NCBI RefSeq assembly: GCF_036365525.1
Contig: NC_090419.1
Span: 13,206,001 to 13,270,000 of the forward strand
DNA from: Heterodontus francisci
Lineage: Eukaryota
Direction of reading: 5' to 3'
DNA length: 64,000 nucleotides
In this document: piece after piece, positions 2,544 to 59,000 of the stretch
How positions within the stretch are numbered: the first letter of the stretch is position 1
How the letters are laid out: each line of letters opens with the position of its first letter
The notes under the pieces: model-generated
What the model was told of the DNA's origin: nothing
The model's database searches: none
The model's input: the letters and a program-made list of their open reading frames with translations, nothing else
Program-made: the position numbers and the translations under genes

Positions 2544-2625
2544 CGCTCGAACTGTCCACCACATCCAGAACAGAAGCAGCCGTGACAGCAACAGCCACAA
2601 GCACCCATCTGTAGAAAACTGACAT
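2544..2625 (-). CDS. Signal-peptide exon 1 of a divergently transcribed gene, probably MHC W-category beta chain (WB); the rest lies outside the window
   Basis: ATG at 2625 gives MSVFYRWVLVAVAVTAASVLDVVDSSS+G (82 nt, phase 1) followed by a GTGAGT donor. It has a hydrophobic leader and sits head-to-head 1.4 kb from the WA ATG. The WB identity is inferred from this arrangement only. Confidence 0.7.
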
Positions 2626-4025: not shown

Positions 4026-4089
4026 ATGGAACTCTGTGGCTTCCTAATAATCATCGCCTCACTTACTACAGTAACAAGGGCAGCGATCA
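4026..4089 (+). CDS. MHC W-category-like alpha chain (WA), exon 1 (leader)
   Basis: CAACATGG start context; MELCGFLIIIASLTTVTRAAI+A, phase 1, GTGAGT donor. Confidence 0.85.
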
Positions 4090-6230: not shown

Positions 6231-6500
6231 ATGTTGAAACTGTGACTGCAGAGTTGTACTACGGCCACACTCCAGACTCAGAAAGAACCGCGGGCATCTT
6301 CAGCCTAAATTCCATTCCCTTCATGTTCTACGACTACGGAATGCGGAAGTTTGTTTTAAATGGGAATGTGACAGACGGGATAGAGGAACTGGGCCAAGAA
6401 ATAGTGACTTATTTTACAGTGAGGACACGTGGCTTCCAGGAGCAACTGGGAATCATGAGCAAAGAGCTGATAAAGCAGACAGGCACAAGGAGGGTTGGCA
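6231..6500 (+). CDS. WA exon 2 (alpha1 membrane-distal domain)
   Basis: Polypyrimidine tract plus TAG acceptor, 270 nt, phase 1/1, GTAAGT donor. Encodes NVETVTAELYYGHTPDSERTAGIFSLNSIPFMFYDYGMRKFV...ELIKQTGTRRVG, a strand-then-helix pattern with typical MHC exon size. Confidence 0.85.
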
Positions 6501-7987
6501 GTAAGTTGCTCATTGACAGTTTTCAAAGCCACTCCCGGTGGCACCACTGAGCATGAACCTCATTAGTGCTGGCGTTCAGTGATGTGGGGGAGGTGAGACC
6601 CGGGCTCAGGTCCTGTGCTGTTCACAGCCCAAGCTGGGTGGGGGAGGCGGTGGGCAGAGCTCGCTACACCTTCCAGCAGGCTGCAACAGGAAAGGGGAAT
6701 AGAGCTGCCAGGTTTGTCGGTATTGAGAATGATTCGGAGACGGTCGAGCGGAACCTTGTGCCCACGCTGTCCAATCCAGGTGGTCAATTTTAACCCTAGC
6801 CATCCAGCAGAAACTGGGCGGGTAGGAAGCCAAAATGGGACTGGGTGACTTATCGGCTGATCCCACTGTCTTCGAATTTAACCTTCTCCTCTGAGCAGGT
6901 AGTAAAGGCACTCGCCTGAAGCTGGTGGGGTCTTTCAGTGTGCAGTTCGGAGCTCCAGTGAAGCCATTTCCGTAGTTAGTGGGTTCCGAGTGTGCTGTGC
7001 GCCATGTGCTCTCCTGATACAACTGAATGTCCGATGAACTAATTCCATTGTATAACTGAGGTGCTGGGTGGTAGTTTGTGGTGGTCTCACATCTAATTTA
7101 CAGCTCAGAAACAGGCCATTCGGCCCATCTGCTGTGTGCCGGTGTTTCTGCTCTACACAAGCCTCCTCCCACCCCTCGCTCCATCTCCCCGTATCACCAT
7201 AACCCTCTATTCCTCTCTGCATCATGTTTATCCTTAAATACATCGATACTATTCACCTCAACCGCTCCCTGTGGTAGCCAGTTCCACATTCTCACCGCTG
7301 TCCAGCAGTTTGTCCTGAATTCCTTCTTGAGATAATTCGCGACCTCCTTTCATTTATGACCCAAGCCCACCAAGTCTCCTAATGACTGTGTTGCTCGGAG
7401 CATTGACCTCTGGGTTCCTACCAGTTGCACGAGCAGCATTGTGCTCCATGAGGATTTAGCCTTTCCCAACTGGCCAAGCCCACGTCAGCCTTTGGTCTCA
7501 TTGTGTGGAATCGTCACGCTGTGACAGTCAGTGCGTACAGGACACTGGAAGCCCCATGTTGAGTCCAGTGCTCTTGGCGTGCTCTGTGTGAACAGACACA
7601 GGAGTTGAGCACGTCCTCTGACTCACCGGGAGCAACGCCACGGGAGATCGGCGAATTGCACTAACAGTCTTACACCAGGAGAGGGGAGGTGCCAGGGACG
7701 TGGGGTTTAGCATGGGGTACGAAACAAAACCTCGGCTACAGTATCATGGCAAACCTCTACTGTCACATTCTCTTGCCCAACCCTCTCACTTTGCACCTGC
7801 TCTCCCCAGTTTGAAAAGCCCATTGTAAATGCACTCCTCGAACCGTCCCTTTATTCACTGTCCTTACTGCTCTCCCACTTCCTCCTCAGGTCTCCTGGAT
7901 CCCTGTAAAACAAGGGAACATTGTGTTATGTGAAAGTGCTATCGAGGTACATGTCATTATTACAGTTAACTGTTATCTCTGTTACAG

Positions 7988-8269
7988 AAAAGCCAGCTGT
8001 GCACATCTACACTGAGGATAACTACACACCACATCAGTCAAACACCCTGTACTGTTACGCAGAAAAATTCTACCCGCACGAAATCGACATTACCTTCCAA
8101 ATCAATGGGAGGCGATTCACTGGGCTGGTTAATTCATCACAAACAGTGTTTGAGCAGGACTGGACATTTAACATCTTAAAGTACATCAGGATCGATCCAC
8201 ATGATGGGGGCACGTACAGCTGCCAAGTAGCTCATATGAGTCTCGAGAAACCACTGACTGTTTTGTTGG
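7988..8269 (+). CDS. WA exon 3 (alpha2, beta2m-like IgSF C1 domain)
   Basis: 282 nt, phase 1/1. Encodes KKPAVHIY...NTLYCYAEKFYPHEIDITFQING...TVFEQDWTFNILKY...YSCQVAHMSLEKP, with the C1 cysteine pair and a beta2m-type F-x-x-D-W-x-F motif. Confidence 0.92.
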
Positions 8270-8359
8270 GTATGTGACATACCGTAGGTTAGGTGTTAAG
8301 TTACTGTGGACGTCATTTAAAGGATTATAAGAATTCTGCAGAGGATCAGGTGTTTACAC

Positions 8360-8532
8360 CAGAGATTCCCGGGACCCCCTGTAAATACTGACACACTCAC
8401 AGGAATCCCCTTTAAATACTGACACTCCTGGGAAACCCTGCAAATACTGACACTCCTGGGACCCCCTTAAATACTGACACTCCTGGGACCCCCTTAAATA
8501 CTGACACACTTCTGGATGTCCTGTAAATACTG
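8360..8532 (-). repeat. Short array of the ~30-33-bp repeat (reverse orientation), left part
   Basis: Repeated ccctgtaaatactgacacactcc units, the reverse complement of the 33130-35585 array. Confidence 0.85.
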
Positions 8533-9614
8533 ATTACGAACAAGGCGGGAGCAATGCACTGTTAATTCAGTCCCACTTCTCCACGGGTCATGGCATATCA
8601 ATAGATTTTTCCCACCTACCGAAGAGTAGCCAATTAGACTCTATTTGTCCCCCAGAATAAAGCACACCAACCAGATTTCTTTACATAACAAGAACATTAA
8701 CTATTCATTAAAAAAAAGTCTTAACCACTAATGAGATAAATCTATATGGATGAAAGCTCCTTATTTCCCTAGTCCTCATGCACCCACATATACATTCAGA
8801 AAAACTGGTTAACCGGGAAAGGAAAAGGTTTTGGTTTACAGCTGTTTCATACGAATAAAAGGAATAATAAAATAATTCAGTTTGTCACGTACTGGTATGA
8901 AATTCTTCGATTGGGTGAGGTGTCCCAGAGTCGAATAGTCGGATGCCACTCAAAGTCTCTCCAGGCGAGGTTGGGGAACAGTCTGTGATCGATAGGCATT
9001 CGAGGCAATTTAACTATAGCAAGTGTCACATAGGTCTTTCAGCAGGGGTGTAGCAACAGGTCTGCTTAGGACTCACAGCAGCAGTATAGCAGTAGAAGCT
9101 TTCTTCAGGTTCCAGGATTTCCCAAAGCACAGGAGGCAACAGGAACCACATCTGGATTCGGGAATTCTTCAGAGACAGGAGACAATAGGAATCTGCCACC
9201 TTTCAAATACAGGGTTTCTTTTCAAGAATTGCACGTTTCCTTGACAGAGAGAGGTCTATTTCTGGGTCTTCCACTTTGATCCCCAGGCAGCTCAGAAACC
9301 GAATTTCAAATGCCTGCTCTTTGTCCAACTCACTAGCTGTTTAAAGGGACCAAAGTGGAAATAAACCTTCCTGAGCCAGTCAATTGACCAGACACAGAGT
9401 TTCCCTGTCATTCAAAGTGTTGTTCTGAGGAGTTCTAAATCCCTGGATGGTTTTCTTGAAACTACTTGCTCTCCTGTCTTGTATACAAAGTCAACATCCA
9501 AAAGTTTCAGCTGTTTGCAGGTGTCCATGTCCATTGAAAAATCCTTTTTTCATTTTTTTTTATAAAACACACAGAATTCTAAGATTTTAGTACAAATATA
9601 AAACCCTTGTAACA
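8533..9614. mobile_element. Solo-LTR-like element inserted in the 32-bp repeat within WA intron 3
   Basis: Ends in TGTAACA and begins with a degraded (TG)ATTACG. ACTG(A) is duplicated on both sides, and the element splits the repeat array. Confidence 0.55.
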
Positions 9615-9745
9615 ACTGACAATTCCAGGGATCCCCCGTAAATACTGACACTCCTGAGATCCCCTGTAAATGCTGACACACTTCCCGGGGACCCCCTGTA
9701 AATACGGACACACTCCCCGGAGACCCCCTGTAAATACTGATACCC
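9615..9745 (-). repeat. Short array of the ~32-bp repeat (reverse orientation), right part
   Basis: ccccgtaaatactgacactcc units resume after the insertion. Confidence 0.85.
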
Positions 9746-9961
9746 TCTTCACTCAAGACAGACTAAGTAATCACTGGTCCCATCCCTATGTACAAAATGG
9801 CAGCTACATGTACTGACATATTAACAGTCAGTGGACTTCAAATAATTCATTGCATGTGACGCACTCTCAGATCATTCTCAGGCATTGTACCAATGTAAAT
9901 CTTTCTAATTCTGACCATCAGTGAATACCTGATAATTTGCTGCCCTGATTGTATTGAACAG

Positions 9962-10073
9962 ATCAGCCTCCTGCACTGCCCGACGCTGGGACCATTGTCT
10001 GTGCTGTTGGAGTTATTGCAGGAGTTCTCGGCTTGGTGATAACTCTGTACCTGGTGACAAAAATATACAAGAG
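9962..10073 (+). CDS. WA exon 4 (connecting peptide and transmembrane segment)
   Basis: DQPPALPDAGTIVCAVGVIAGVLGLVITLYLVTKIYK carries the class II-alpha-type TM motif T-x-V-C-A-x-G-xxx-G-xx-G. Phase 1/2, GTGAGA donor. Confidence 0.9.
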
Positions 10074-10188: not shown

Positions 10189-10228
10189 ACGAGGAAAGCT
10201 TTGCTCTGAACAGCTCCGCAAACAATAA
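10189..10228 (+). CDS. WA exon 5 (cytoplasmic tail and stop)
   Basis: ttttgtttacAG acceptor, phase 2, RRGKLCSEQLRKQ*. The summed CDS is 768 nt = 255 aa plus stop. Confidence 0.8.
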
Positions 10229-15869: not shown

Positions 15870-16632
15870 GCTGGGATTGGCTGGGCAATTTGGAGCACTT
15901 CCTGCCAGCAATCAGGGGGAGCAGCTGCACCTGTGCTGCAGCAACTGCAGAGTGGAGTGTGGAGAGTGGAGAGTGGAGAGTGGAGAGTGCAGCAACTGGT
16001 GAGAGGAGAGTGGAATAACTGCAAAGAGGTGACTATAGAGTGGAGACAGCTGCATTTACTGAGGAACTGTTGCACTTTTTCAACGATTAAGAAGACCTGC
16101 AAGTCATTTTGGAGAGGTGGGTGTTGGAGCACCAGAGAACTGTTGGTTGTTTGGACTGTTGGGGGAGGGAGGAGGCACCGGAAGATCCAGGGGTGGGGCT
16201 GCCAAATTCTATAGGGAGCCCTTGTATTTGGTCTTGTGTTTATCTGCCATCCTGCACAGAAGGGGCTCCCTCCCCACCCCCAACTGTGTGGCTCGGGATG
16301 GCTGGAGCTGCCCGGCTGAAGACTATCTTAATACAACAACAGAAAAGGGAGAGAACCGGGCGGCTCTAGCCGACCCGGGCGAAGAGCCCTCCCCTAACTG
16401 GAAGATTGAATTGTAGACTCTGCAGGAAGGTGCTCCAACCACCAAGTGAACTGTAACATCCTCGCAGCTGTTCTCTCTCTTCCATCACTCGGCCACCTAT
16501 CCTCTCCTCTCCTTGTCCTTTTCAACCCTATCCTCCTCTACTCCCATCCCCACCTCCCCCATCATATTGTTTGTGTTTAAGAAAACTGTCGTGTGCTTTG
16601 TTTCTTGGGGGTGGGCGTAGCTCTGCGACCCC

Positions 16633-18674
16633 ATGGCAAGCCCCTCTTCGCCGGTGGCGGGGCCTTCCCGTTCATATGCTGCTGCGGCTGCTGCAGCTGC
16701 ACCTGTTGCCCCGTCACCGTTTGCTTTATTAACATCGAAGCATGGGGTCAAGAGCTACGTCCACCCGAACATGACTATCGAGGCATGCGTGAAAGCAATG
16801 GCCGAGGTTGTTGGCCCTTCGGCCATTGTTGCAGCCTCTAAAATGTATGGGAAGGCAGTGTTGTTCCTGAGGACCGAGCGGGCGGTGTCCCTGGCTCTGA
16901 GCAAGGGGCTCACCGTGGGCGGGACCTTTCTGCCAGTGGACCCCCTGGAGGCCACTGCGCAAAGGCTCATTCTATCCAATGTCCCGCCCTTCATTCCTGG
17001 TGAGCTCCTCCTTCCCCACCTGCACCATCTGGGGGAGGTAAAGACGGGGCTCACCCCAGTCCCGCTCGGTCTTCGGGAGAACAGCATCCGACACGTGTAC
17101 TCCTTCCGCCGCCAGTTATTCATGCAGCTGGCGCGGGAGGAGGTGACAGAGGGCCACTTTAATGTAGAATTCCAGGGGACGGCCTACCGCGTCTTCTGGA
17201 CCTTGGACGGGGTGCGGTGCCATGTCTGTAAGGGGGTGGGGGCATGTTCGTAAGAACTGCCCCAACCTCCCGGCTGCCAACTCCAACTCGGTGGCCCAGG
17301 GTGGCGACGCTGCATCTCCTCCCACCCCCCCCACACCTCCACCAGATACCATTCAGTCGGTACCGGAGGCTGTGGTTTTCACGGCCTCCGGCAGGGAGGG
17401 GGGTGACCGTCCAAGTGGAAGGAAGGCGCGGAGGAGAAATAAACATCGAGAGGCGCGTCCCCTGGACACCGTGACACTACCCGAGCCTGAGCTCAGCCCA
17501 AGGCCCGATCTCGGGAAGTCAACTTGCCCCAGGGCTGGGCTCAGGCCCAGGGTGAATAAAAAAAAGGAGAGTGTGGAGGTGGAGGCCTCTGATGATATGG
17601 AGGTCTCTGAGCCTCCACACACAACTGGGAAAAAGAGGAGAAGGCACCCCTCCACAGAGGTAACAAGGGGCCCTGAGGCTCAGGGCCCATCTGTTGGAGG
17701 GGAGCTGTCTCCTGTTTCGGGTCCCCAGGTTTCCCCTACCGCCACCACCAAGGCTGCAAAGTCCGGGCAGGAGCACTCTATTCCTCAGGATGGAGGGGAG
17801 GGGAAGGCCCCGGTACTTGAGGCCCCTCCTGAAGGAGTAAGTGGGGCCCTGCTTGTGGTGGGGAAGCCTGGGGACGCCGCCCATTCTACCACTGCTACTG
17901 GGTCGGGTGCCCTGAATGAAGGGGAGGGCGAGGCCCCAGAGGGTCGGCCCTCCCAGCCGGAGTCTACCACCAACCGAGAGACACCCGACCCGGTTATAAC
18001 CGAGAATGCTGCCCCATCTGCTGGGCCTGTGGGTGCTGCCGGAGCGGGAGATGGCCTCCTCTCTCCGCCTCCAGTCTCGGCTCCGGCTGGTTTTCCGGAG
18101 TCGGGAACTTCTGTCTCCCCTGGACCACTCATTGGCTTGGGGACGGAGGTGGAGGGGGGGTCCTGAACCGCTGGTGCCTACAGGCTCCAGTTTCACAATA
18201 GAACCCAGAGAGGACTCCTCCGCCATCGATCCTGGGGGTGGGATCGTGACGGAGGCGGGACCAGCTGGCGCGGCCGGGACGTCCGCCCCACAGTGTGTGG
18301 TAGATGCGTCGGCCGCTGGCGGTGACGACCCGGAGGAGGATGGGGATTCGGTGCGGGGCACGGAGGATGATCTTGATTCCATCACCAGTGAGGTGGTGGA
18401 GTCCCTCGTGCCTCCCACCGAATCTCCTCTCATCCCCACGGCGGAACTCCGGGATTTCCTCGCGGCTTGCAGAGGTTGCCGCAATAAAGTTCAGCTGGCC
18501 CTCGACCGTTGGTCGAATCTGGCGCTGATCATACAGTCCGTCCGTGCCGCCCTTCAGATAGCGGGCAAGCGCGCGGACGTGAAACTGGTTGAGAGGCGCC
18601 GTTTTAATGTGTTCCTCAATGGGTTGCTGGGGGAATGGAGGGCCAGGTGCACTTCCACTCCCTCCTCACAGTGA
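16633..18674 (+). CDS. Tx1 ORF1 (gag-like nucleic-acid-binding protein), split by two +1 frameshifts in G runs
   Basis: ORFs 16633-17253, 17222-18166 and 18006-18674 lie in successive frames. Removing one G near 17240 restores the CX2CX4HX4C knuckle CHVCKGVGHVRKNC. Confidence 0.8.
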
Positions 18675-18706
18675 GGTGTTTGTGACGGGTTTTAATTACC
18701 TTTGAC

Positions 18707-21700
18707 ATGAAGATAACCATAGCCAGCCTCAACATCAACGGCAGCAGAGGGGCTCACCGCAGATTTCACAATCTCTCAGTCCTTAGGGAAGGGAGATACG
18801 CGATGAGCTTTCTGCAGGAAACCCACACCGTTCCGGGAGACGAAGCCACCTGGCTCCTGGAGTGGCAGGGTGGGGTCTACATGAGTCACCTCACCCCTAT
18901 TTCCAGTGGGGTGGCTATCTTGTTGGCCCCGACTTTTCAGCCGGAGATCTTGGGGGTCAAGGGGCTAGTGCCGGGCCGCTTGCTCCACCTCACCGTTCGC
19001 CTGGGTAGCGTGCCGCTCCACTTTGTGAACGTGTACGCGCCCAGGCCCGGCGCGTTGCAAGCGCGCTTCTTTGAAGAAGTGTCCGCTCTCTTGAGCTCCA
19101 TCGATAGCGGCGAGTGCATCATCCTCGGGGGGGATTTTAACTGCACCCTCGAGGTGGGGGATCGCTCCGGTCCCCAGCGCGGCCAAGCGTCGGTGGAGAA
19201 GTTGAGGGGACTGATCAGCTCCCTTAACTTGGTGGACGTCTGGCGGAATCTCCATCCCGACTCCAGCGCCTTCACGTGGAGGTCTGGAGGAGGGGGGTCG
19301 CGAATCGACCGCCTCTACATTTCGCAGGCGTACGTCTCCCGCGTTTCGGCGGCCTCCATGCGGCTGGTGCCGTGCTCGGACCACCGCCTGGTGTGGGCGG
19401 AGTTCACTCCGCTCCGCACGCGGGCGGGGTCCGCGTACTGGCACTTTAACAACCGGCTGCTGGAGGACGTGCGATTTCGGGACTCGTTCTGTCGATTCTG
19501 GGCCGACTGGAGAAGGAAACAGGGGGGCTTCCCCTCCTTGAGGCTATGGTGGGATGTGGGCAAGACTCACATCCGCGTCTTCTGTCAGGAGTACGCGAGG
19601 GGGTCGACCAAGAGGCGGGAAGCCGAGATCGGGCGCCTTGAGAGGGAGGTGCTCGACTTGGAATCCCGCCTCGGTCATGCCGTCGCGGACCCGGTCCTGT
19701 GGCAGGCGTACAAAGAGAAGAAGGGCGCGCTGAGGAACCTGCAGCTCATAGGGTCCCGAGGCGCGTACGTGAGGTCGCGGATCCAGATCCTGGAAGATTT
19801 GGACCGTGCCTCACCCTTCTTCTACTCGCTGGAAAAATGGCGGGGGGTCCGTAAGCAGCTCGTTGAGCTGCTGGCCGACGACGGATCCTCCATCACGGAT
19901 CCGGAGGGAATGGGCCTCCTGGTCCGGACGTATTACAGTGCGTTGTTCTCTCCGGATCCGTCCAGCGAGGATGCGCGCAGAGTTTTGTGGGAGGACCTGC
20001 CGCAGGTCAGCCCGGAGGGCGCCGAAGGATTGGAGGCTCCGCTCACGTTGGCGGAGCTGACTGGCGCCCTCCACCAGCTCTCGAGGGGCAAATCCCCAGG
20101 GCTGGATGGGTTGACCGTGGAGTTCCTCAGGGCGTTCTGGGACGTCCTGGGGGACGATTACGCGCGGGTCCTGGGGGAAAGCCTAGCGACCGGGGAGATG
20201 CCCCTCTCGTGGCGCAGGGCGGTCATCGTCCTGCTGCCGAAGAGGGGCGATCTCCGCCTGCTTAAAAACTGGCGTCCGGTCTCCCTCCTCAGCACGGATT
20301 ATAAGATCTTTGCCCGGGCTATGTCTACCCGCCTGGGCTCCATGCTGGCCCACATGATCCACCCCGACCAGTCCTACACGGTCCCGGGCCGGTCCATCCA
20401 GGACAACATCCACCTGGTCCGGGACCTGATCCATCTTTCCCAGAGGACTGGTCAGTCGGTCGCCTTTCTCTCCCTCGATCAGGAGAAGGCGTTCGACAGG
20501 GTGGATCACGATTACCTTTTCGGGACTCTGCGCGCTTTCGGACTCGGGCCGCATTTCGTGGCCCGGGTCCGACTTTTAGACGCCGCCGCAGAGTGTCTAG
20601 TCAAAGTTAACGGGTCCTTGACGGCGCCCCTTCGCTTTGGGAGAGGAGTGCGTCAGGGGTGCCCCATGTCCGGCCAATTGTATACCATCTGCGTGGAGCC
20701 CTTCCTGTGCCTGCTTCGCAGGAGGTTGACGGGGTTGGCTCTGCGCGAGCCGGCCATGCGGGTCGTCCTCTCGGCTTACGCCGACGACGTGCTCCTCGCA
20801 ATCACAGATCCCGTTGACTTGCGGAGGATGCGCGACTGCCAGCAGACCTTTTCTGCCGCGTCCTCCGCGAGGATCAATTGGGAGAAATGTTCCGGACTCC
20901 TGGTTGGTCAGTGGCGGGTGGACTCCCTGCCGGAGGAGATGACACCTTTTGCGTGGAGCACCACGCACCTCCTCTATCTGGGAGTCCACCTTAGCCCCGC
21001 TGAGGAAGCCTGGCCGGCAAACTGGCAGGAGTTGGAGGCGAAAGTCACCGCTCGGCTGGGGCGCTGGACAGGACTGCTCCGAGTGCTTTCCTACAGGGGC
21101 CGAGCATTGGTCATAAACCAACTGGTGGCCTCCATGCTGTGGTACCGGTTGGTCACTTTGGCCCCGCCCCCTGTATTTGCCACCAAGATCCAGAAGAAAC
21201 TCGTCGATTTCTTCTGGGGCAAGAGGAAACACTGGGTCTCTGCCGCGGTCCTGAGTCTCCCGATCGAGGAGGGCGGTCAGTCGCTGGTGTGCGTCCGCAC
21301 CCAGGCTGCGACTCTCCGCCTTCGGACCCTGCAGAGATACCTGTACGTCGAGCGTCCTCCCAGATGGTGTGCGCTGGCGACGTATTTTTTCCGCCAGTGT
21401 CACTGCCTTCAAGACGACACGCAGCTCCCGGTGGAGTCCGTTAGCCGCGCCTCTCTGAGGGAGTTGCCTGTCTTTTACCGGGATCTTTTCCGAGTCTGGA
21501 ACATGGTCGCCTCCAGTCAGGGCGCTCCCCCGCCGGCGGAGGAGAGCGCCTCGGCTGTCCGGGCGGCCGACTCCGGGGACGGTCCGGCGGGCGGAGGAGT
21601 AGCCGGAACCCCCGGGACGCCCCTCACTGCGGGTGGCGAGGGGGCTCGGGAGTGCGGAGCGATCCCGGCCGAGCTGACCCCCGCTCGGCCGGAACTGCTC

Positions 21701-22486
21701 ATCGGACCCAGGCCCCGAAACCCTCCTCGGGAGCCGGTCCCGCACAACCCGAGCCGCCTCTCGGAAATGCCCTCCGTGCCATTCCAATCGGCGCGGAGGG
21801 GTTTCCTGTACTGGCTGCTCCTGCACACTCTCCACTTCCTCGCCCTCGTCAGCCGGCCGGACACGCCCTGGCGGTCCGCGTTGCCATCTGGCGGCGAGGG
21901 GAAACCCCGATGGAGGTCTCTCTACGCGGGAGTCTTCCCCCTTTACATCGGGGAACTGGGGTGGAGGGTGCTGCACAGAGCAGTCCCGTGCAATAGGCTT
22001 TTAAGTAGGTTCACGGACTCCCAGGCCAGCTGTACTTTCTGCGGCCTGGACGAGTCCGTGTTCCACATTTATATGGAGTGTGCGAGGTTGCAGCCCCTAT
22101 TTGAGTATCTGAAGGGGCTGCTCCTCAAATTCTGGCTGCACTTCAGTCCCACGCTCCTGATCTTTGGGCACCCGGTGCGGAGGGGCTTGGGCCGGGAGGA
22201 GGATCTCCTCGTCGGTCTGCTCCTGGGCCTGGCCAAGGTGGCAATTCACAGGTCCAGTTTGCGGGCCGTCGGGGGGTCCGTCCTCCCCGATTGCCTGCCC
22301 CTCTTCCGCGGTTACGTTCGCGCCCGGGTGTCCCTGGAAAGGGAGCATGCGGTGTCCGCCGGTACGCTTGAGGCCTTCCGCGACTGGTGGGCACCGCAGG
22401 GACTGGAGTGCATTGTCGACGCCGAGAATGGCATTTTTAATTTGAGTTTTTTGTTTATTTATCTGGTTTTAATAAAGTTATTTTAA
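18707..22486 (+). CDS. Tx1 ORF2: AP endonuclease, reverse transcriptase and C-terminal Zn finger (1259 aa)
   Basis: APE motifs SLNING, LQETH, GGDFN, SRIDR, SDH; RT motifs KSPGLDG, WRPVSLL, DQEKAFD, GVRQGCP, YADD; Zn finger CTFC...ESVFHIYMEC. Confidence 0.95.
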   Translation: MKITIASLNINGSRGAHRRFHNLSVLREGRYAMSFLQETHTVPGDEATWLLEWQGGVYMSHLTPISSGVAILLAPTFQPEILGVKGLVPGRLLHLTVRLGSVPLHFVNVYAPRPGALQARFFEEVSALLSSIDSGECIILGGDFNCTLEVGDRSGPQRGQASVEKLRGLISSLNLVDVWRNLHPDSSAFTWRSGGGGSRIDRLYISQAYVSRVSAASMRLVPCSDHRLVWAEFTPLRTRAGSAYWHFNNRLLEDVRFRDSFCRFWADWRRKQGGFPSLRLWWDVGKTHIRVFCQEYARGSTKRREAEIGRLEREVLDLESRLGHAVADPVLWQAYKEKKGALRNLQLIGSRGAYVRSRIQILEDLDRASPFFYSLEKWRGVRKQLVELLADDGSSITDPEGMGLLVRTYYSALFSPDPSSEDARRVLWEDLPQVSPEGAEGLEAPLTLAELTGALHQLSRGKSPGLDGLTVEFLRAFWDVLGDDYARVLGESLATGEMPLSWRRAVIVLLPKRGDLRLLKNWRPVSLLSTDYKIFARAMSTRLGSMLAHMIHPDQSYTVPGRSIQDNIHLVRDLIHLSQRTGQSVAFLSLDQEKAFDRVDHDYLFGTLRAFGLGPHFVARVRLLDAAAECLVKVNGSLTAPLRFGRGVRQGCPMSGQLYTICVEPFLCLLRRRLTGLALREPAMRVVLSAYADDVLLAITDPVDLRRMRDCQQTFSAASSARINWEKCSGLLVGQWRVDSLPEEMTPFAWSTTHLLYLGVHLSPAEEAWPANWQELEAKVTARLGRWTGLLRVLSYRGRALVINQLVASMLWYRLVTLAPPPVFATKIQKKLVDFFWGKRKHWVSAAVLSLPIEEGGQSLVCVRTQAATLRLRTLQRYLYVERPPRWCALATYFFRQCHCLQDDTQLPVESVSRASLRELPVFYRDLFRVWNMVASSQGAPPPAEESASAVRAADSGDGPAGGGVAGTPGTPLTAGGEGARECGAIPAELTPARPELLIGPRPRNPPREPVPHNPSRLSEMPSVPFQSARRGFLYWLLLHTLHFLALVSRPDTPWRSALPSGGEGKPRWRSLYAGVFPLYIGELGWRVLHRAVPCNRLLSRFTDSQASCTFCGLDESVFHIYMECARLQPLFEYLKGLLLKFWLHFSPTLLIFGHPVRRGLGREEDLLVGLLLGLAKVAIHRSSLRAVGGSVLPDCLPLFRGYVRARVSLEREHAVSAGTLEAFRDWWAPQGLECIVDAENGIFNLSFLFIYLVLIKLF

Positions 22487-23660: not shown

Positions 23661-23925
23661 CCCAGTCCATAAGAAGCCCCTGCGAGAGGGAGGCGTGCTC
23701 CACCGAGCAATTTGGGTCAGTGTTGATGAAGGCAGCTTTCAGAAAGGTCTCATCGCTGTTTGGGAGGACCTGGGTCTGTATCCCTTCGTGTCGGAGGCTC
23801 CCACCATTTCTTAGCCAGGTCATGTTGAGGGCTCCTGGACAGTAGCTGGCAGCTGTACACTGGAACTGGCTGGAATGGCCACAGGCCCCCAGATCATGGA
23901 AGGAGACGGTCACTGCCAGGAGACA
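23661..23925 (-). pseudogene. Degenerate MHC C1-domain exon (WB beta2 / class I alpha3-like)
   Basis: ttctcAG acceptor and GTATGT donor (phase 1). Encodes ...QCTAASYCPGALNMTWLRNG...QVLPNSDETF...DPNCSVEHASL...MDW. Its 265 nt fit a 282-nt exon with a +1 frameshift near the start and an 18-nt loss before the second Cys. Confidence 0.8.
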
Positions 23926-29779: not shown

Positions 29780-29960
29780 CATACACAGGCAGACATACAC
29801 ACACAGACATATGCAGAGACACACACACCCAGACACATGCACGCACCCACACACACGCGCGCGCGCACACACACACACCCAGACACATGCACGCACCCAC
29901 ACACACGCGCGCGCGCGCACGCGCACACACCCAGACACATGCACACACACATATGCACAC
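29780..29960. repeat. (CA)n/(CG)n compound microsatellite
   Basis: Directly visible, with an internal ~50-bp duplication. Confidence 0.9.
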
Positions 29961-29988
29961 ATTATTAATTTGCTCATTATGCCTTCAG

Positions 29989-30041
29989 GGATGGAGAGAC
30001 AAAGCAGTGGACAGCTGGTGGAATCCGAGACTGGAGTAAAG
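29989..30041 (+). CDS. SIT1: SIT1-like linker exon
   Basis: ccttcAG acceptor, AAG|GTCAGT donor, phase 1/0: GMERQSSGQLVESETGVK. Confidence 0.72.
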
Positions 30042-30989
30042 GTCAGTGTTGATGTCGAGTTGAGAATCACAAGCGTTTGTTCAGGTTCAGGATGCTTGGC
30101 ATGGGTTTGCCAGTCTCCGAGTGTGGCTGCCAACAACATGTGGGAGGTGCCCTTTCTTGGCTTCAATGGACTGGCAGGGCTTAAAATCATGGTCCCGCTG
30201 TTGGCGGGATCTTGCTGTGCGGGAGGCGGCTGCCCATCCGCCTGCGCGCGGCCAGCTTCAGAGCGAGCGGCCGGGCGTGCAAGCGTTCCGGGAGCGTCTC
30301 CCGGCAGACCCGACCCGGCTTTCACGCAAAGCCACGCCCCCCCCCCCCACCCCCCGCGACCCTGCCCTGCCGGGAAGGACCTGCGCGAAATCTGCGGGTT
30401 ACGCTTTGTAGCAGAAAGATTTGAAACTCTGCTTCGCACAGGAAATTGAGGGCTTTTGTTGTTGCAGATTCAGGAGCAGTCGCGAGCGAAAGCGAGCAGA
30501 AATATCCAAACGATCCGCTGTTTGCAGACGGTCTCTCCCCAAGATGTGTTCAATGACAACATGTGCAGTGGCACAATTCAAACCCTCTTTGCTTTGATTT
30601 CTTCCTTCTGGGATGGAGGGGCTTGGCCTCAGTGTATGTGCCTAAACTCTGTGTTGTCGAGCTCTCCTAATCTCTTTCATAGGAGTTGTCAACCTGCCAC
30701 GCTTCCTGCCTCTGACCTAAATTAAGTTCTGCAGTTGCAACACACGAGTGCAGGGAGAGTCGGTGAGGGAAACTGCAATCATGTTGTAACTACAACGTGC
30801 GCAGCAACGCACGGTCTGCTGAATCCGCGTTCCGCCATTTCAAAGGAGCAGGAAAATGGGGATCAGACAGTCATTCCCAATTCTGGGATCTTCCAGGGCA
30901 CACTTGTTTCGGGATGTGAGTCTCCCCTCTGCTGATTGTTGGCCGTGTGGTGCAAAAGCTGCCATTTAGATGAGGGGGATATCAGGATG

Positions 30990-50173: not shown

Positions 50174-53064
50174 GGCATTTCCCCGAGCATGCGCACAGAG
50201 CACCGCCTCCCGAAAGGGGGCGGGGAGAGGAGTGCCGAGCATGCGCGGTGGCGGCGGCCCGACAGCTGAGCGAGGAGGAGTTCCTTCCTGAGTGGCCAGA
50301 CTTGCCCCCAATTTTAACCACCACTCCTCCCTTTCCCCGTACAAGGGCTCCACCGCTGCCGCCCTCCAGCGTTCAGGAGGAGTTCCTTCCCCAGTGGCCA
50401 GACTTGCCCCCAATTTTAACCACCATTCCTCCTAAAGGCACTACCTTTTCTCTTTTAATGGGTTTTTGGGATTCTTAAGTTACCTGCTGCACCGGCCCTC
50501 CCCGTCAGAGCCCCGACAGTGAATCGTAGGGCGATGCGGCGCAGAAGGAGGCCATTGGGCCCATTGCGGCTGTGCTGCCTCTTCAGCAGAGCTATCCAAT
50601 TAGTCCCACTCCCCTCTCTTTCTCCAGAGCGCTGTAATTTTTTTTTTCTTCAGTGTTCAGATTCCCGCCATGGCCTCGCATCCCCCCCGCCATATCTCGG
50701 TAACCACCTCCAGCCTCTACAACCCTCCGAGATCTCTGCGCTCCTCCACTTGCGCATCTCCTGGATTCCCATCGCTCCACCATAGGCAGCCGTGACTTCA
50801 GCTGCCTGGAGCCCTCAGCTCTGGAACCACCTCCCTAAACCTCTTCACTTCTCTCTCTCTCTCCTCCTTTAAGACGCTCCTCAAAACCTGTCTACATGTC
50901 CTAATATCTGCTCGGTGGGGTATTTTGTCTCACTCGCACTGCTGTGAAGCAGCTTAGGACGTTTTACTACATTTAAGGCGGTATATAGGTGCAAACTGTT
51001 GCCCTGATAGTGAATCACGACGACATCACAACCCAGACGGCACCTTCCCTCGCCCGACACCCACACGTTCCCCCTTTCCAGTAGGAATTTGTTGCACTAG
51101 TCTCTGTGGAATTCCCGCAGCGATGTGGGGCTTTTTGGGAGGGCATTGCTCCCCAACATATGCCCAGCTGCTAGTGTGGAGGGGGGGGAGCCGCTTGCTA
51201 CTGTGGGCTGGGGTCGCCAAAATTGAAGCTACTGGCTTTTACTTAATGCTGGCAGACCTCCCGTGGCATTGCTCTTGGTTAGTAGGAGGGATGCGCTGCT
51301 TGATAAGGAGAGGATCGTTACTCTACGTTTACTATCATGGAGCCGACTCTGCTACATATTATCGCCCGGCAAGTTTGTCCTCGTTATTGTACTCTGGGAA
51401 TTGCATTGTGATATTGCTATATCCCAGTTTTTTGTCAAGCGTAAGCTTGTCATGGTTACTTAGCTCTGGATTTCCCTTTCTAAACCTCTCTGCCTCTCTC
51501 TCCTCCTTGAAGACGCTCCTTAAAACCAGTCGCAAATTTTTTACTGTTCCTGTGCAGCACCTTTAGACATTCTACTACATTAAGAGCACTATTTACACAC
51601 AACTTGCTGTTATTACTGGGAGCAAGACCCTCAAATCCTATCTGCTCTGTACCAAATCTCAAGTTCCCTCGGGGACCCAAAGTAGAGATCCCCAAACCCC
51701 CACCCAACCCTTGGGCCTGTGCCCTAGTGCTGAGTCCCCGTTGGGCCCCATGCCTCCGAACCTGGGACCCACGCACCAGTATCGAGAACCCCTCGGCTTG
51801 GGCTCCATTCAATGTAGCTTTCCCAATTTCCACTGATGGAATAGGGCCTGTCTGCCCTTATTTCATGTTAATTCAGTGAGCTGTGTGGTGTCCAAATGCG
51901 AGACCTTTTCTACCCCCCGCCACCAGCTTCTACCTTCGAGAGATGCATCGAGATGTGGTGTACAGCCCTGGAAGCCCAACATGCAACGCTTGACCAACCT
52001 TGGGACGTTATCCAGAAGCCAACTGATGTGACACTTGACAGACCCCCAAGCAGCCACCTTGACCGAAGAAATCTGGGCCTACCCTGCTAGGCCCAGTGCC
52101 TGCTGCAAGGAGGCCTGGCCCCGAATGCTCCTCACTCATTATCGAGATTCGTCTCCCCGTCCCTTAACCTGCCTCTAATGTCAACGTCCTGTGATTCCAG
52201 GAACTGTGACCCTCATTTTTTTTTAAAAAACACGGGCCACTCGGCCCATCAGTTCCAAGCTGGCGTTTCTACTGCCACATGTGCCCTCTCCCACTTTGCT
52301 GTGGTGGGCAATATTTATTGAAACAACCATTTGGCGTAATAAAACATCCCAAGGGGCTTGACAAGCATGTTATAAAGCAATATTTGACACCTGGCCACTC
52401 AAGGAAATATTAGGGACAGATGACCCAAAGCTCGGTCAAAGAGGTTGGTTTTAAGAAGCGTCTTAAAGGAGGAGAGAGAGAGGCGGAGAGCTTGAGGGAG
52501 GGAATTCCAGAGCTAAGGGACCCAGCCAGCTGAAGGCACAGCCACCAATGGTGGAGCAATGGGAATCGGGGGATGTTCAAGCGGACGGAATTGGAGGGTG
52601 CAGAGATCTCGGAGGGTTGTAGGGGCTGGAGGAGGTTACAGAGATAGGGAGGGGTATAGGGGCTGGAGGAGATTACAGAGATAGGGAGGGGAATAGCGGA
52701 TGGAGGAGGTTACAGAGATAGGGAGGAGAGAGGTATTTGTAAAACCTCTATTCCTTTAGTCTTAAGAATTCAACCAGCTTCCTTTAAATGCATATAAGCT
52801 TATCATTTCAACCAGAGGGTGCAACCCACAAAGTTGCCTTGGGAGGCTGCCACCCCCATCCTCCCCCCTCCTCTCCCCGACCACACCTGCAAGATTTGAG
52901 ACCTTGCTGCCCTTCCCACCAATAAAATTAGGTTTGGCAGCAGAGTTTTCAAAATGAACCAGTTTCAAACCGTGTGTTCTGTTACATCACAGATACATAA
53001 TTGAGTTTCCATGTGATGTCACAACCACATGCTCTTGTGTTTTAGCTGTTGCAGACAAGATACT

Positions 53065-56000
53065 GGGAGATACCCGGGAGTGAGGTACGCTCTGAAATCG
53101 AATCGAGGGGTTCGACTGGTTTATATATAGAATAACAGATACCCGGGAGTGAGTTACAGACTGGAATCTAATCGAGGGGTTCGGGGGTTTATATATAGAA
53201 TAACAGATACCCGGGAGTGAGTTACAGACTGGAATCTAATCGAGGGGTTCGGGGGTTTATATATAGAATAACAGATACCCGGGAGTGAGTTACAGACTGG
53301 AATCTAATCGAGGGGTTCGGGGGTTTATATATAGAATAACAGATACCCGGGAATCAGTTACAGACTGGAATCTAATCGAGGGGTTCCGGTGCTTTATATA
53401 TAGATTAACAGATACCCGGGAGTGAGTTACAGACTGGAATCTAATCGAGGGGTTCCGGTGCTTTATAGATAGAATAACAGATACCCGGGAGTGAGTTACA
53501 GACTGGAATCTAATCGGGGTGTTCCGGTGGTTTATAGATAGAATAACAGATACCCGGGAGTGAATTACAGACTGGAATCTAATCGAGGGGTTCGGGGGGT
53601 TTATATATAGAATAACAGATACCAGGGAGTGAGTTGCAGACTGGAATCTAATCGAGGGGTTCAGGGTGTTTATTTTAGAATAACAGATACCCGGGAGTGA
53701 GTTACAGACTGGAATCTAATCGAGGGGTTCAGGGTGTTTATTTTAGAATAACAGATACCCGGGAGTGAGTTACAAACTGGAATCTAATCGAGGGGTTCAG
53801 GGTGGTTTATATATAGAATAACAGATACCAGGGAGTGAGTTGCAGACTGGAATCTAATCGAGGGGTTCAGGGTGTTTATTTTAGAATAACAGATACCCGG
53901 GAGTGAGTTACAAACTGGAATCTAATCGAGGGGTTCAGGGTGGTTTATATATGGAATAACAGATACCTGGGAGTGAGTTACAGACTGGAATTTAATCGAG
54001 GGGTTCCGGGGGGTTTATAGATAGAATAACAGATACCCGGGAGTGAGTTACAGACTGGAATCTAATCGTGGGTATCGGGGGGTTTATCTATAGAATAACA
54101 GATATCCGGGAGTCAGTTACAGACTGGAATCTAGTCGAGGGTTTCGGGGAGTTTATATATAGAATAACAGATGCCCGGGAGTGAGTTACAGACTGGAATC
54201 GAGAGGTTCGGGGGGTTTATATATTGAATAACAGATACCCGGGAGTGAGTTACAGACTGGAATCTAATCGAGGGGTTCCGGTGGTTTATATATAGAATAA
54301 CAGATACCTGAGAGTGTGTTACAGACTGGAATCTCATCAAACGGTTCGGGGGGTTTATATATCGAATAACAGATACCCGTGTGTGAGTTACAGACTGGAA
54401 TTGAGGGGTTCGGGGGGTTTATACGTAGAATAACAGATACCCGGGAGTAAGTTACAGACTGGAATCTAATCGAGGGGTTCGGGGGGGTTTATATATAGAA
54501 TATCAGATACCAGGGAGTGAGTTACAGGCTGGATTCTAATCGAGGGGTTTGTGTAGTTTATGTATAGAATAACAGATACCAGGGACAAAAACAAGAAATG
54601 CTGGAATCACTCAGCAGGTCTGGCAGCATCTGTGGAAAGAGAAGCAGAGTTAAAGTTTCGGGACAGTGACCCTTCTTCGGATTTTGTTTCAGATTTCCAG
54701 CATCCGCAGTATTTTGCTTTTATTAACAGATACCAGGGAGTGAGTTACAGACTGGAATCTAATCGAGGGGTTCAGGGTGTTTATTTTAGAATAACAGATA
54801 CCCGGGAGTGAGTTACAGACCGGAATCGAGGGGCTCGGGGGGTTTATACGTAGAATAACAGATGTCTGGGAATCAGTTACAGACTGGAATCTAATCAAGG
54901 GTTTCAGCTGGTTTATAGATAGAATAACAGATACCGGGTAGTGAGTTACATACTGGAATCTAATCGAGGGGTTCAGGGTGTTTATTTTAGAATAACAGAT
55001 ACCCGGGAGTGAGTTACAGACTGGAATCTAATCGTGGGTTTCGGAGGGTTTATATATAGAATAACAGATACCCGGGAGTGAGTTACAAACTTGAATCTAA
55101 TCGGGGTGTTCCGGTGGTTTATATATAGAATAACAGATTCCCGGGAGTGAATTACAGACTGGAATCTAATCGAGGGGTTTGTGTAGTTTATATACAGAAT
55201 AACAGATACCAGGGAGTGAGTTACAAACTGGAATCTAATCGAGGAGTTCAGGGTGGTTTATATATAGAATAACAGATACCCGGGAGTGAGTTACAGACTG
55301 GAATCTAATCGAGGGGTTCGGGGGTTTATATATAGAATAACAGATACCCGGGAGTGAGTTGCAGACTGGAATCTAATCGAGGGGTTCGGGGGTTTATATA
55401 TAGAATAACAGATGCCCGGGTGTGAGTTACAGACTGGAATCTAATCGTGGGTATCGGGGGGTTTATCTATAGAATAACAGATATCCGGGAGTCAGTTACA
55501 GACTGGAATCTAGTCGAGGGTTTCGGGGAGTTTATATATAGAATAACAGATGCCCGGGAGTGAGTTACAGACTGGAATCGAGAGGTTCGGGGGGTTTATA
55601 TATTGAATAACAGATACCCGGGAGTGAGTTACAGACTGGAATCTAATCGAGGGGTTCGGGGGGTTTATATATAGAATAACAGATACCCGGGAGTGAGTTA
55701 CAGACTGGAATCTCATCAAGGGGTTCGGGGGGTTTATATATAGAATAACAGATACCCGGGAGTGAGTTACAGACTGGAATCTCATCAAGGGGTTCGGGGG
55801 GTTTATATATAGAATAACAGATACCCGGGAGTGAGTTACAGACTGGAATCTAATCGAGGGGTTCGGGGGGTTTATATATAGAATAACAGATACCCGGGAG
55901 TGAGTTACAGACTGGAATCTCATCAAGGGGTTCGGGGGGTTTATATATAGAATAACAGATACCCGGGAGTGAGTTACAGACTGGAATCTAATCGAGGGGT

Positions 56001-59000
56001 TCGGGGGGTTTATATATAGAATAACAGATACCCGGGAGTGAGTTACAGACTGGAATCTAATCGAGGGGTTCGGGGGGTTTATATATAGAATAACAGATAT
56101 CCGGGAGTGAGTTACAGACTGGAATCGATGGGTTCGGGGTGTTTATACGTAGAATAACAGATGCCCGGGAGTGAGTTACAGACTGGAATCGAGAGGTTCG
56201 GGGGGTTTATATATAGAATAACAGATACCTGGGAGTGAGTTACAGATGGAACCTAATGGGAGGGTTCGGGGGGGTTTATCTACAGAATAACAGAAACCCG
56301 GGTGTGAGTTACAGACTGGAATCTAATCGAGGGCTTCAGGGTGTTTATTTTCGAATAACAGATACCCGGGAGTGAGTTACAAACTGGAATCTAATCGAGG
56401 GGTTCGGGGGTTTATATATAGAATAACAGATACCCGGGAGTGAGTTGCAGACTGAAATCTAATCGAGGGGTTCGTGGGGTTTATCGATAGAGTAACAGAT
56501 ACCGGAAGTGAGTTACAGACTGGAATCTAATCGAGGAATTTAGGGTGTTTATTTTAGAGTAACGGATACCCGGGAGTGAGTTGCAGACTGGAATCTAATC
56601 GTGGGTTTTGTGTCGTTTATGGATAGAATAACAGATATCTGGGAGTATGTTACAGATGGAATCGAATGGGAGGGTTCAAGGGGGTTATGTATAGAATAAC
56701 AGATACCCGGGAGTGAGTTGCAGACTGGAATCTAATCGAGGGGTTCAGGGTGTTTATTTTAGAATAACGGATACCCGGGAGTGAGTTGCAGACTGGAATC
56801 TAATAGTGGGTTTTGGGTCGTTTATATATAGAATAACAGATACCCGGGAGTGTGTTACAGACTGGAATCTAATCGAGGGGTTCAGGGTGGTTTATATAGA
56901 GAAGAACAGATACCCGGGAGTGAGTTACAGACTGGAATCTAATCGAGAGGTTCAGGGTGGTTTATATATAGAAGAACAGATACCCGGGAGTGAGTTGCAG
57001 ACTGGAATCTAATCGAGGGGTTCAGGGTGTTTATTTTAGAATAACGGATACCCGGGAGTGAGTTGCAGACTGGAATCTAATAGTGGGTTTTGGGTCGTTT
57101 ATATATAGAATAACAGATAGCCGGGAGTGTGTTACAGACTGGAATCTAATCGAGGGGTTCAGGGTGGTTTATATAGAGAAGAACAGATACCCGGGAGTGA
57201 GTTACAGACTGGAATCTAATCGAGAGGTTCAGGGTGGTTTATATATAGAAGAACAGATACCCGGGAGTGAGTTGCAGACTGGAATCTAATCGAGAGGTTC
57301 AGGGTGGTTTATATATAGAAGAACAGATACCCGGGAGTGAGTTACAGACTGGAATCTAATCGCGGGGTTCAGGGTGTTTATTTTAGAATAACGGATACCC
57401 GGGAGTGAGTTGCAGACTGGAATCTAATAGTGGGTTTTGGGTCGTTTATATATAGAATAACAGATACCCGGGAGTGTGTTACAGACTGGAATCTAATCGA
57501 GGGGTTCAGGGTGGTTTATATAGAGAAGAACAGATACCCGGGAGTGAGTTACAGACTGGAATCTAATCGAGAGGTTCAGGGTGGTTTATATATAGAAGAA
57601 CAGATACCCGGGAGTGAGTTACAGACTGGAATTTAATCGAGGGGTTCGGGTGGTTTATATATAGAATAACAGATACCTGAGGGTGAGTTACAGGCTGGAA
57701 TCTCATCGAGGGGTTCGGGGGTTTATATAGTGAATAACAGATACCCGGGAGTGAGTCACAGACGGGTATATAATCGAGGGGTTTGTGTAGTTTACATATA
57801 GAATAACAGATACCTGGGAGTGAGTTACAGAGAGCAATCTAATCGAGGGGTTTATATCTAGAATAACAGATACCCGTGTGTGAGTTACAGACTGGAATCG
57901 AGGGGTTCGGGGGGTTTATATGTAGAATAACAGATGTCCGGGAGTGAGTTACAGACTGGAATCTAATCGAGGGGTTCGGGGGGTTTATATATAGAATAAC
58001 AGATACCCGGGAGTGAGTTACAGACTGGAATCTAATCGAGGGGTTCGGGGGGTTTATATATAGAATAACAGATACCCGGGAGTGAGTACAGACTGGAATC
58101 TAATCGAGGGGTTCGGTGTGGTTTATATATAGAATAACAGATACCTGAGAGTGAGTTACAGACTGGAAAATTGAGCGTTTCGGGGGGGTTTATACGTAGA
58201 ATAACAGATACCCGTGTGTGAGTTACAGACTGGAATCGAGGGATTCGGGGGGGTTTATACGGAGAATAACAGATACCCGGGAGTCAGTTACAGATGGAAT
58301 CTAATGGGAGGGTTCAAGGGGGTTATGTATTGAATAACAGAAACCCGGGAGTGAGTTACAAGCTGGAACCTAATCGAAGGGTTCGGGGATTTATACATAG
58401 AATAACAGATACCTGGGAGTGAGTTACAGGCTGGAATCGAATCGAGGGGTTCAGGGGGTTTATCGATAGAATAACAGATACCCGGGAGTGAGTTACAGAC
58501 TGGAATCTAATCGAGGGGTTTAGGGTGTTTATTTTAGAATAACGGATACCCGGGAGTGAGTTACAGACTGGAATCTAATCGTGGGTTTTGGGTCGTTTAT
58601 AGATAGAATAACAGATACCCAGGAGTGAGTTCCAAACTGGAATCTAATCGAGGGGTTCGGGGTGTTAATACATGGAATAACAGATACCCGGGAGTGAGTT
58701 ACAAGCTGGAACCTAATCGAAGGGTTCGGGGATTTATATATAGAATAACAGATACCTGGGAGTGAGTTACAGACTGGATTCTAATCGAGGGGTTCAGGGG
58801 TTAATATATAGAATAACAGATACCCGGGAGTGAGTTACAGGCTGTAATCTAATCGAGGGGTTCCGGGTGTGTTTATATATAGAGTAACAGATACCCGGGA
58901 GTGAGTTACAGGCTGGAATCTAATCGAGGGGTTCCGGGTGTGTTTATATATAGAGTAACAGATACCCCAAGTGAGTTACAGACTGGAATCTAATCGAGGT

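What the first reader, a model, noticed from the sequence alone, without database searches (positions are those of the whole stretch)
7988..8269. Membrane-anchored chain whose C1 domain carries beta2m signatures
TVFEQDWTF aligns with beta2m LSFSKDWSF (F56, W60, F62, the class I heavy-chain contact residues). The canonical IgSF C-strand Trp is replaced (EIDITFQING versus beta2m DIEVDLLKNG), and NTLYCY matches beta2m NFLNCY. Yet the domain follows a Cys-free alpha1 domain and precedes a class II-alpha TM. This mosaic is the proposed class II-to-class I intermediate.
Basis: partly seen in the sequence, partly recalled or inferred. Interest (0 to 1): 0.7.

Follow-up and report, generated by a model that had tools for sequence, protein, structure and literature searches.

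The report
Shark W-category MHC alpha chain
This exon belongs to a shark W-category MHC alpha-chain gene, a published family built like class II but with class I-type contact residues, and its product likely pairs with the neighbouring beta chain; it is a real but already known kind of gene.

Summary
Real, but already published. Window 7988-8269 is the alpha2 (C1-set) exon of a five-exon, 255-aa W-category MHC alpha gene (WA, DS5-like subgroup of Okamura 2021, PMC8713811). It matches the published zebra bullhead shark WA DS5L row at 87 of 94 residues. It lies head-to-head with a WB gene (leader at 2544-2625, minus strand), in a cluster of three WA/WB pairs.

The two defining marks hold: W61 and loss of W37. 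Both class II alpha exons tested from this genome have W37 and Y61. A predicted complex puts W61 against WB beta1 Q6/A32/G35/T37, the class I contact positions (score 0.74, best control 0.01; likeness to solved MHC structures may explain the pass).

Corrections: F57 is not a conserved mark. It is one base away from V in the paralog, absent from 10 of 10 relatives, and V in 3 of 3 covering runs. N-x-L-x-C and Y8 also occur in class II alpha. The chain is a living member of the proposed intermediate family, not the intermediate itself. Side findings: Ig exons homogenised between paralogs, and a likely spliced antisense transcript.

The parts
7988..8269 (+). WA alpha2 exon, C1-set Ig domain (the finding)
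   Evidence: AG/GT ends; PF07654 E 4.5e-18; 87/94 identical to published WA DS5L row (counted by eye); joint 6500>7988 in 3 of 4 runs, 8268>9961 in 1 of 4 among the joints shown
8161..8163 (+). Codon of W61 (beta2m W60 equivalent), the residue that names the W category
   Evidence: Alignments; predicted contacts with WB beta1 Q6, A32, G35, T36, T37
8095..8097 (+). Codon of F37, replacing the IgSF C-strand Trp
   Evidence: F here, L in beta2m (L005), W in class IIA (L004, L006) and IIB (L007, L013)
8149..8151 (+). Codon of F57 (TTT); V (GTT) in the paralog and in the runs laid
4026..4089 (+). WA signal-peptide exon
   Evidence: N-terminus like P0004-P0010; no leader-to-alpha1 joint among those shown
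6231..6500 (+). WA alpha1 exon, Cys-free, 60% identical to the paralog's alpha1
9962..10073 (+). WA connecting peptide and class II alpha-type TM exon (CxxGxxxGxxG; fourth Gly is Thr)
10189..10228 (+). WA cytoplasmic exon to the TAA stop (CDS 768 nt, 255 aa)
   Evidence: joint 10071>10187 in 3 of 4 runs
2544..2625 (-). Signal-peptide exon of the head-to-head WB partner (Nds5-like, database protein P0011); its other exons lie just left of the window
   Evidence: P0011 maps exon by exon, C49:13200.5-13208.6 kb; a 389-nt X4 contig covers this exon and beta1

Best explanation
This is the alpha2 exon of an intact, spliced shark W-category MHC alpha gene (WA, DS5-like), whose chain likely pairs with the beta chain of the head-to-head WB gene to form a nonclassical MHC-like cell-surface heterodimer. 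Shown: gene structure, family marks, pairing in the genome, splice joints. Predicted: the alpha2 domain wedges under the alpha1/beta1 platform as beta2m does, with W61 packing on beta1 Q6, A32, G35 and T37, and its ABED face meeting beta2 around P57. Inferred from class II and from the salamander W pair: the TM glycines help the chains assemble and reach the surface. Inferred: the groove serves a fixed or restricted ligand, not polymorphic peptide display, and the paralogous pairs differ in that groove.
For: 87/94 alpha2 and 45/50 CP/TM/CY residues match the published zebra bullhead WA DS5L rows (counted by eye). All 10 hits at E<=1e-15 (of 20 candidates) are shark proteins carrying a DS5-type alpha2 domain, including two Triakis entries that match the paper's WA DS5 rows. 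W61 and F37 are present; class IIA of the same genome has Y61 and W37. The partner has beta1 Q6, A32, G35 and beta2 P57, G61. Three head-to-head pairs, as reported for great white shark. The cluster is on C49 while beta2m, class I and class II exons are on C29, as reported for elasmobranchs. Splice joints in both genes. Complex model: score 0.74, best of 3 controls 0.01; the mark was reached by 51 of 78 solved and 2 of 108 mismatched microbial pairs (39 of 65 and 2 of 126 for eukaryotes); contacts agree >=91%, partner pLDDT >=81; the four lowest-error pairs are W61 with Q6, A32, T37, G35.
Against: The complex pass may come from memory of solved class I/II structures and does not tell which family member binds; alpha1 and alpha2 were folded as separate chains and alignments were not used. 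L55 is T, beta1 D37 is T, alpha1 V30 is I, and the fourth TM Gly is T. The assembled alpha2 differs from its paralog at three residues (F31H, V57F, D77G), one in the D-x-Y-x-C motif, so this allele could be weakened. The fold search cannot tell beta2m from class II alpha2 (Z 10.3-11.0, tied). No ligand is known. The runs are only guessed to be RNA and are contigs.
Confidence: 0.93

Rival explanations
1. It is a divergent classical class II alpha (DAA-type) chain, as the automatic names of its relatives suggest.
For: Class II exon layout and TM; relatives are auto-named 'class II ... alpha chain-like'; alpha2 is 32% identical to class IIA and 31.5% to beta2m of the same genome; WA+IIA grouping not rejected (AU p=0.33).
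Against: Lacks W37 and has W61, unlike 2 of 2 own-genome and 8 of 8 published class IIA domains seen. 66-97% identical to WA DS5-type domains. Partner has P57/G61, not the class IIB W61. Not on the contig that holds the class II exons.
Confidence: 0.02
2. The assembled copy is a decaying allele or paralog, and F57 is drift or an assembly error.
For: Three amino-acid changes against the paralog; 3 of 3 runs covering 8149 read V57, F31 and D77; a likely antisense transcript spans the gene.
Against: Open frame, canonical splice sites, intact Cys pair and W61. The window-type alpha1 is spliced to alpha2 in two organisms. alpha1 pN 0.21 versus pS 0.48 against the paralog suggests purifying selection. 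This rival concerns the allele, not the family.
Confidence: 0.2
3. F57 in alpha2 and Q6 in the partner's beta1 are a compensatory pair that re-creates the class I F56-Q96 contact.
For: Only this pair has F57+Q6; relatives have V/I57 (10 of 10) and H6 (5 of 5 proteins, 3 of 3 published rows shown). The model puts F57 on Q6.
Against: No difference is listed at the Q6 codon in 4 of 4 runs, while alpha2 is V57 in 3 of 3 covering runs (X1, X2 and X4 were laid on both). So Q6 occurs with V57 and the two are not coupled.
Confidence: 0.07
4. It is a membrane-anchored beta2m that serves class I heavy chains.
For: Single-domain beta2m chains lead the Foldseek list; W61 and non-W37 are shared.
Against: It has its own alpha1 exon spliced to alpha2, which would clash with the heavy chain's alpha1 (inference). 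A true beta2m exon exists on C29 (L005). It has a dedicated WB neighbour.
Confidence: 0.01

Closest known systems
MHC W-category alpha chain, DS5-like subgroup (Okamura et al. 2021, PMC8713811; commentary PMC8812513)
   Same: Class II domain layout, W61, F37, Y8, class II alpha TM glycines, head-to-head WB partner, three-pair cluster; alpha2 87/94 and CP/TM/CY 45/50 identical to the zebra bullhead WA DS5L rows.
   Different: The alpha1 is not the one in the published zebra bullhead row (that row matches the paralog, copy A); it groups with the catshark '159K'-type alpha1 (93/92, unstarred). F57 and H31 in the assembled copy are not in any of the 8 published DS5-like rows.
beta2-microglobulin
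   Same: W61, non-W37, Y8, F63, (F57 in this copy); C1-set fold; predicted position under the platform.
   Different: Has alpha1, TM and tail; T55 not L55; 31.5% identity to this genome's beta2m; different contig.
Classical MHC class II alpha chain (shark DAA type)
   Same: Exon layout, TM Cys and glycines, N-x-L-x-C, Y8, A/B gene pair in opposite orientation.
   Different: Class IIA keeps W37 and lacks W61; its partner has beta2 W61, whereas this partner has P57/G61.

Membership tests
MHC W-category alpha (WA) | Class II layout: leader, alpha1, Ig alpha2, CP/TM/CY | tested here: met
   Five exons, 255 aa; three of four joints seen
MHC W-category alpha (WA) | W61 in alpha2 | tested here: met
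MHC W-category alpha (WA) | F/L37 instead of the IgSF Trp | tested here: met
   F37
MHC W-category alpha (WA) | Y8 in alpha2 with P57 in WB beta2 | tested here: met
   Y8; partner P57. Y8 alone is not diagnostic (also 2 of 2 own class IIA)
MHC W-category alpha (WA) | L55 and F/Y57 in alpha2 (typical, not universal) | tested here: inconclusive
   T55, as in 2 of 8 published DS5-like rows; F57 only in the assembled copy, V/I in 8 of 8 published DS5-like rows. The published subgroup itself departs from this feature
MHC W-category alpha (WA) | Head-to-head WB partner lacking beta2 W61 (mostly G61) | tested here: met
   Start codons 1.4 kb apart; P0011 G61
MHC W-category alpha (WA) | Class I-type platform residues: alpha1 V30; beta1 A32, G35, D37 | tested here: inconclusive
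   I30, A32, G35, T37: two exact, one conservative, one not. Published DS5/Nds5 rows also show I30 (most) and T37 (3 of 3)
MHC W-category alpha (WA) | alpha2 clusters with beta2m in trees | tested here: inconclusive
   Best tree has the clade at 72/74; alternative not rejected, p-AU 0.33; 27 rows, 93 columns
MHC W-category alpha (WA) | Forms a WA/WB heterodimer at the cell surface | not testable with these tools
   Model supports binding (0.74 vs 0.01) but does not show it; shown only for tiger salamander
Classical MHC class II alpha | Invariant W37 in alpha2 | tested here: not met
   F37
Classical MHC class II alpha | Partner beta2 with invariant W61 | tested here: not met
   G61 in P0011; W61 in L007 and L013
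Classical MHC class II alpha | TM CxxGxxxGxxGxxxG | tested here: inconclusive
   4 of 5 positions; last Gly is Thr
beta2-microglobulin | Single soluble Ig domain without alpha1 or TM | tested here: not met
   alpha1 and TM exons are spliced to it

The most novel reading that the evidence does not exclude
Shark DS5-type W pairs keep several ancient alpha1/beta1 groove lineages while gene conversion homogenises their Ig and TM exons within each species. The window pair would then be a distinct ligand-binding W lineage shared with catsharks, whose F57 allele meets a partner Q6 and rebuilds the full class I F56/W60-Q96 interface on a class II scaffold: a natural allele pair (V57 versus F57) for testing what the beta2m-type interface adds.
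Probability: 0.15. Interest if true: 0.45.

Novelty: already known. Interest (0 to 1): 0.2.

Why it matters
The W category is the main sequence evidence that class I arose from a class II-type heterodimer, so the family matters. This copy adds one more shark member and a model that agrees with the published contact scheme. What is modestly new: paralog exons diverge very unevenly (alpha1 74% nt, alpha2 98%; beta1 about 70%, beta2 99%), an F57/V57 difference exists at one locus, and an antisense transcript likely crosses the gene. The function and ligand of W molecules remain open (PMC8812513); no W-category entry appeared among the rows shown by my PDB searches.

Tried and rejected
1. Frame 1 of 7988-8269 on either strand has stops; the exon starts in phase 1 and reads from 7990.
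2. Pfam finds nothing for alpha1 or the TM exon, so Pfam cannot place them.
3. AlphaFold2 model of alpha2 (pLDDT 77) with Foldseek and VIA-align: beta2m, class II alpha2 and class II beta2 tie within 1 Z unit. The fold does not discriminate.
4. Tree test of WA+beta2m: inconclusive.
5. NTLYCY and Y8 as beta2m marks: rejected. N-x-L-x-C is in 8 of 8 published class IIA rows seen and 2 of 2 own class IIA exons; Y8 is in 5 of 8 and 2 of 2. This genome's beta2m reads NVLLCH.
6. W61 plus a membrane anchor is not diagnostic alone: class II beta2 also has W61, with W37.
7. F57-Q6 compensation: not supported.
8. No RNA holder is listed on record; six runs are RNA by guess. X3 has no contig over 8149.
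9. The window's own full-length protein was not among the 10 hits, so the complex was folded as alpha1 + alpha2 + WB 28-208.
10. A crude exon scan of window 10.5-64 kb plus 30 kb beyond found no beta1 or WA exon for the extra C1 exon; weak evidence.
11. Paper search returned only unrelated papers. The search of earlier findings returned nothing near.
12. The SI Appendix PDF of PMC8713811 could not be read; it holds the species table, cluster maps and a W-molecule model, and may already describe the paralog pattern.

Full report
Observation. Window 7988-8269 (+) is a 282-nt exon with AG/GT ends. With exons at 4026-4089, 6231-6500, 9962-10073 and 10189-10228 it gives one open frame of 255 aa: leader, alpha1, alpha2, CP/TM, tail. 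The exon is a C1-set domain (E 4.5e-18). The quoted motifs are present and in the stated register against beta2m. alpha1 has no Cys. The TM keeps 4 of the 5 positions of the class II alpha string CxxGxxxGxxGxxxG.

Identity. A paper search led to Okamura et al. 2021 (PMC8713811). I read parts 1-5 of 6 of the main text, part 1 of 7 of Dataset S1, parts 1-2 of 6 of Dataset S2 and searched rows of S1-S3. The SI Appendix could not be read. The paper defines W-category chains by class II layout plus W61 and F/L37 in WA alpha2, and P57/G61 in WB beta2. The window domain matches the 'zebra bullhead shark WA DS5L' row at 87 of 94 residues and its CP/TM/CY row at 45 of 50 (counted by eye). All 10 hits (of 20 candidates) of a search among longer proteins are shark proteins with a DS5-type alpha2, under misleading automatic names. 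P0003, P0011 and P0012, named Heterodontus francisci by their source, map exon by exon onto this contig, so the window is most likely horn shark.

Neighbourhood. The window is C49:13,206,001-13,270,000. With 110 kb to the left and 30 kb to the right there are three head-to-head pairs: WA-DS5L copy A (-) with WB P0012 (+); WA-DS10L (-) with a WB-DS1L-type beta2 exon (+); and WB P0011 (-) with the window's WA (+). The start codons of the last pair are 1.4 kb apart. The paper reports three pairs in great white shark. Exons of beta2m, class I, class IIA and class IIB were found on C29, not C49 (labels are mine, from likeness to the published rows). Verissimo et al. 2023 report W genes outside the MHC in elasmobranchs (PMC10751288, passages).

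First, the Trp is at the equivalent position: sequence alignments agree, and a three-chain model places it on beta1 Q6, A32, G35, T36 and T37 with errors of 0.7-1.0 A. Q6, A32, G35 and D37 are the class I positions that the paper names around beta2m W61. The score was 0.74 against a best control of 0.01; 51 of 78 solved and 2 of 108 mismatched pairs reached the mark (microbes; 39 of 65 and 2 of 126 in eukaryotes); contacts agree at least 91%, partner pLDDT at least 81. Many class I and II complexes are solved, so the pass may reflect likeness only. F63 was not named in the interface. Second, shark class II alpha does not share the marks: both own-genome exons have W37 and Y61, and 8 of 8 published class IIA rows seen have W37 and none has W61.

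What was over-read. N-x-L-x-C is in 8 of 8 of those class IIA rows and both own exons; Y8 in 5 of 8 and both own exons. L55 is T. F57 is special to the assembled copy: the paralog differs by one base (8149) and has V; 8 of 8 published DS5-like rows and 10 of 10 database proteins (overlapping sets) have V or I. In 3 of 3 runs covering 8149 the letter gives V. In X1 and X2 that contig starts in the window-type alpha1 and keeps the window letters at 8127 and 8193, so it likely comes from this locus. F57 is therefore a recent change or an assembly error, not an inherited beta2m mark. The partner's Q6 (H in 5 of 5 related proteins) shows no difference in 4 of 4 runs, so F57 and Q6 are not coupled.

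Results that do not help. The alpha2 model (pLDDT 77) matches beta2m and class II domains equally (Z 10.3-11.0). Identity to own beta2m (31.5%) and class IIA (32.3%, 31.2%) is the same. A 27-row tree holds WA with beta2m at 72/74 and does not reject WA with IIA (p-AU 0.33). The 'class II first' argument thus rests on the paper, not on my data.

Expression. Contigs of runs guessed to be RNA show GT..AG joints 6500>7988 (3 of 4 runs), 8268>9961 (1 of 4) and 10071>10187 (3 of 4), with 18 further joints not shown. The partner shows four introns joined, three in 4 of 4 runs and one in 3 of 4. The runs come from at most two samples and two organisms.

Mechanism. Shown: intact gene, family marks, dedicated partner gene, splicing. 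Predicted: beta2m-like wedge of alpha2 under the alpha1/beta1 sheet. Inferred: TM-glycine pairing and joint surface transport, as shown for salamander WA/WB. Inferred: a nonclassical role; the paper and Kaufman's commentary (PMC8812513, part 1 of 2 read) find neither full peptide-anchor sets nor high polymorphism in W genes.

Paralog evolution. Between the two DS5-type pairs, nucleotide identity is 74% for alpha1 and about 70% for beta1, but 98% for alpha2, 97% for the WA TM and 99% for beta2. Synonymous divergence is 0.48 in alpha1 and 0.03 in alpha2. In 10-row trees alpha1 groups across species (one starred cross-species clade; window with catshark P0010 at 93/92, unstarred), while alpha2 groups within species for Triakis and Heterodontus (both starred). 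Gene conversion of the Ig and TM exons is the likely cause (inference). The two Triakis variants in the paper already show the same pattern.

Literature. Four searches found the defining paper, its commentary and passing mentions (PMC12619710 and PMC13399432, passages only). I saw no paper on this exact locus, but the library lacks most subscription journals.

Verdict. Already known: a horn shark member of the W-category DS5-like subgroup. Interest 0.2.

Noticed in passing
window 7903-9928 (minus strand): Contigs of X1, X2, X3 (one sample) join 7901>9928 with CT..AC ends, i.e. a GT..AG intron on the minus strand with a strong polypyrimidine tract. Likely a spliced antisense transcript that skips over the alpha2 exon; a second acceptor-like site lies at 10051. 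A heterozygous 2-kb deletion is the alternative. Not seen in X4.
   Followed up: partly
window 23661-23912 (minus strand): A further C1-set exon (PF07654 E 2.6e-6) resembling published WB DS3-like beta2 rows, with P57 but six residues missing before the second Cys; no beta1 or WA partner found by a crude scan. Likely a relic of a fourth W lineage.
   Followed up: partly
window 6231-10073 versus G000:C49:13133.5-13141.3 kb; L029 versus L024: Ig and TM exons of the two DS5-type pairs are 97-99% identical while alpha1 and beta1 are 70-74%; likely gene conversion with old groove lineages kept.
   Followed up: partly
window 8077-8078, 8149, 8210: The assembled alpha2 differs from the paralog and from the runs at three residues (H31, F57, G77), the last in the D-x-Y-x-C motif; allele or assembly error.
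   Followed up: partly
P0001, P0002, P0003 (database proteins): Gene models look faulty: P0001 and P0002 fuse a WA-DS10-like gene to a WA-DS5-like gene, and P0003 starts with a repeat-like first exon instead of the leader at C49:13141217-13141279.
   Followed up: no
window 6501-6520: The intron after alpha1 reads on as SKLLI, like the end of the published catshark 159K alpha1 row, which may therefore include intron read-through.
   Followed up: no
window 16621-22486 (+): Near-complete non-LTR retroelement: ORF1-like frames and a 1266-aa endonuclease/reverse-transcriptase-like ORF; Tx1/L1-like by recall, not tested.
   Followed up: no
window about 53000-64000: Long tandem repeat array of about 68-69 nt period with strong GC skew.
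   Followed up: no
window 29875-30126 (minus strand): An exon-like open frame with an Ig-like stretch (LNSTSTLTFTP) appeared in the exon scan; untested.
   Followed up: no
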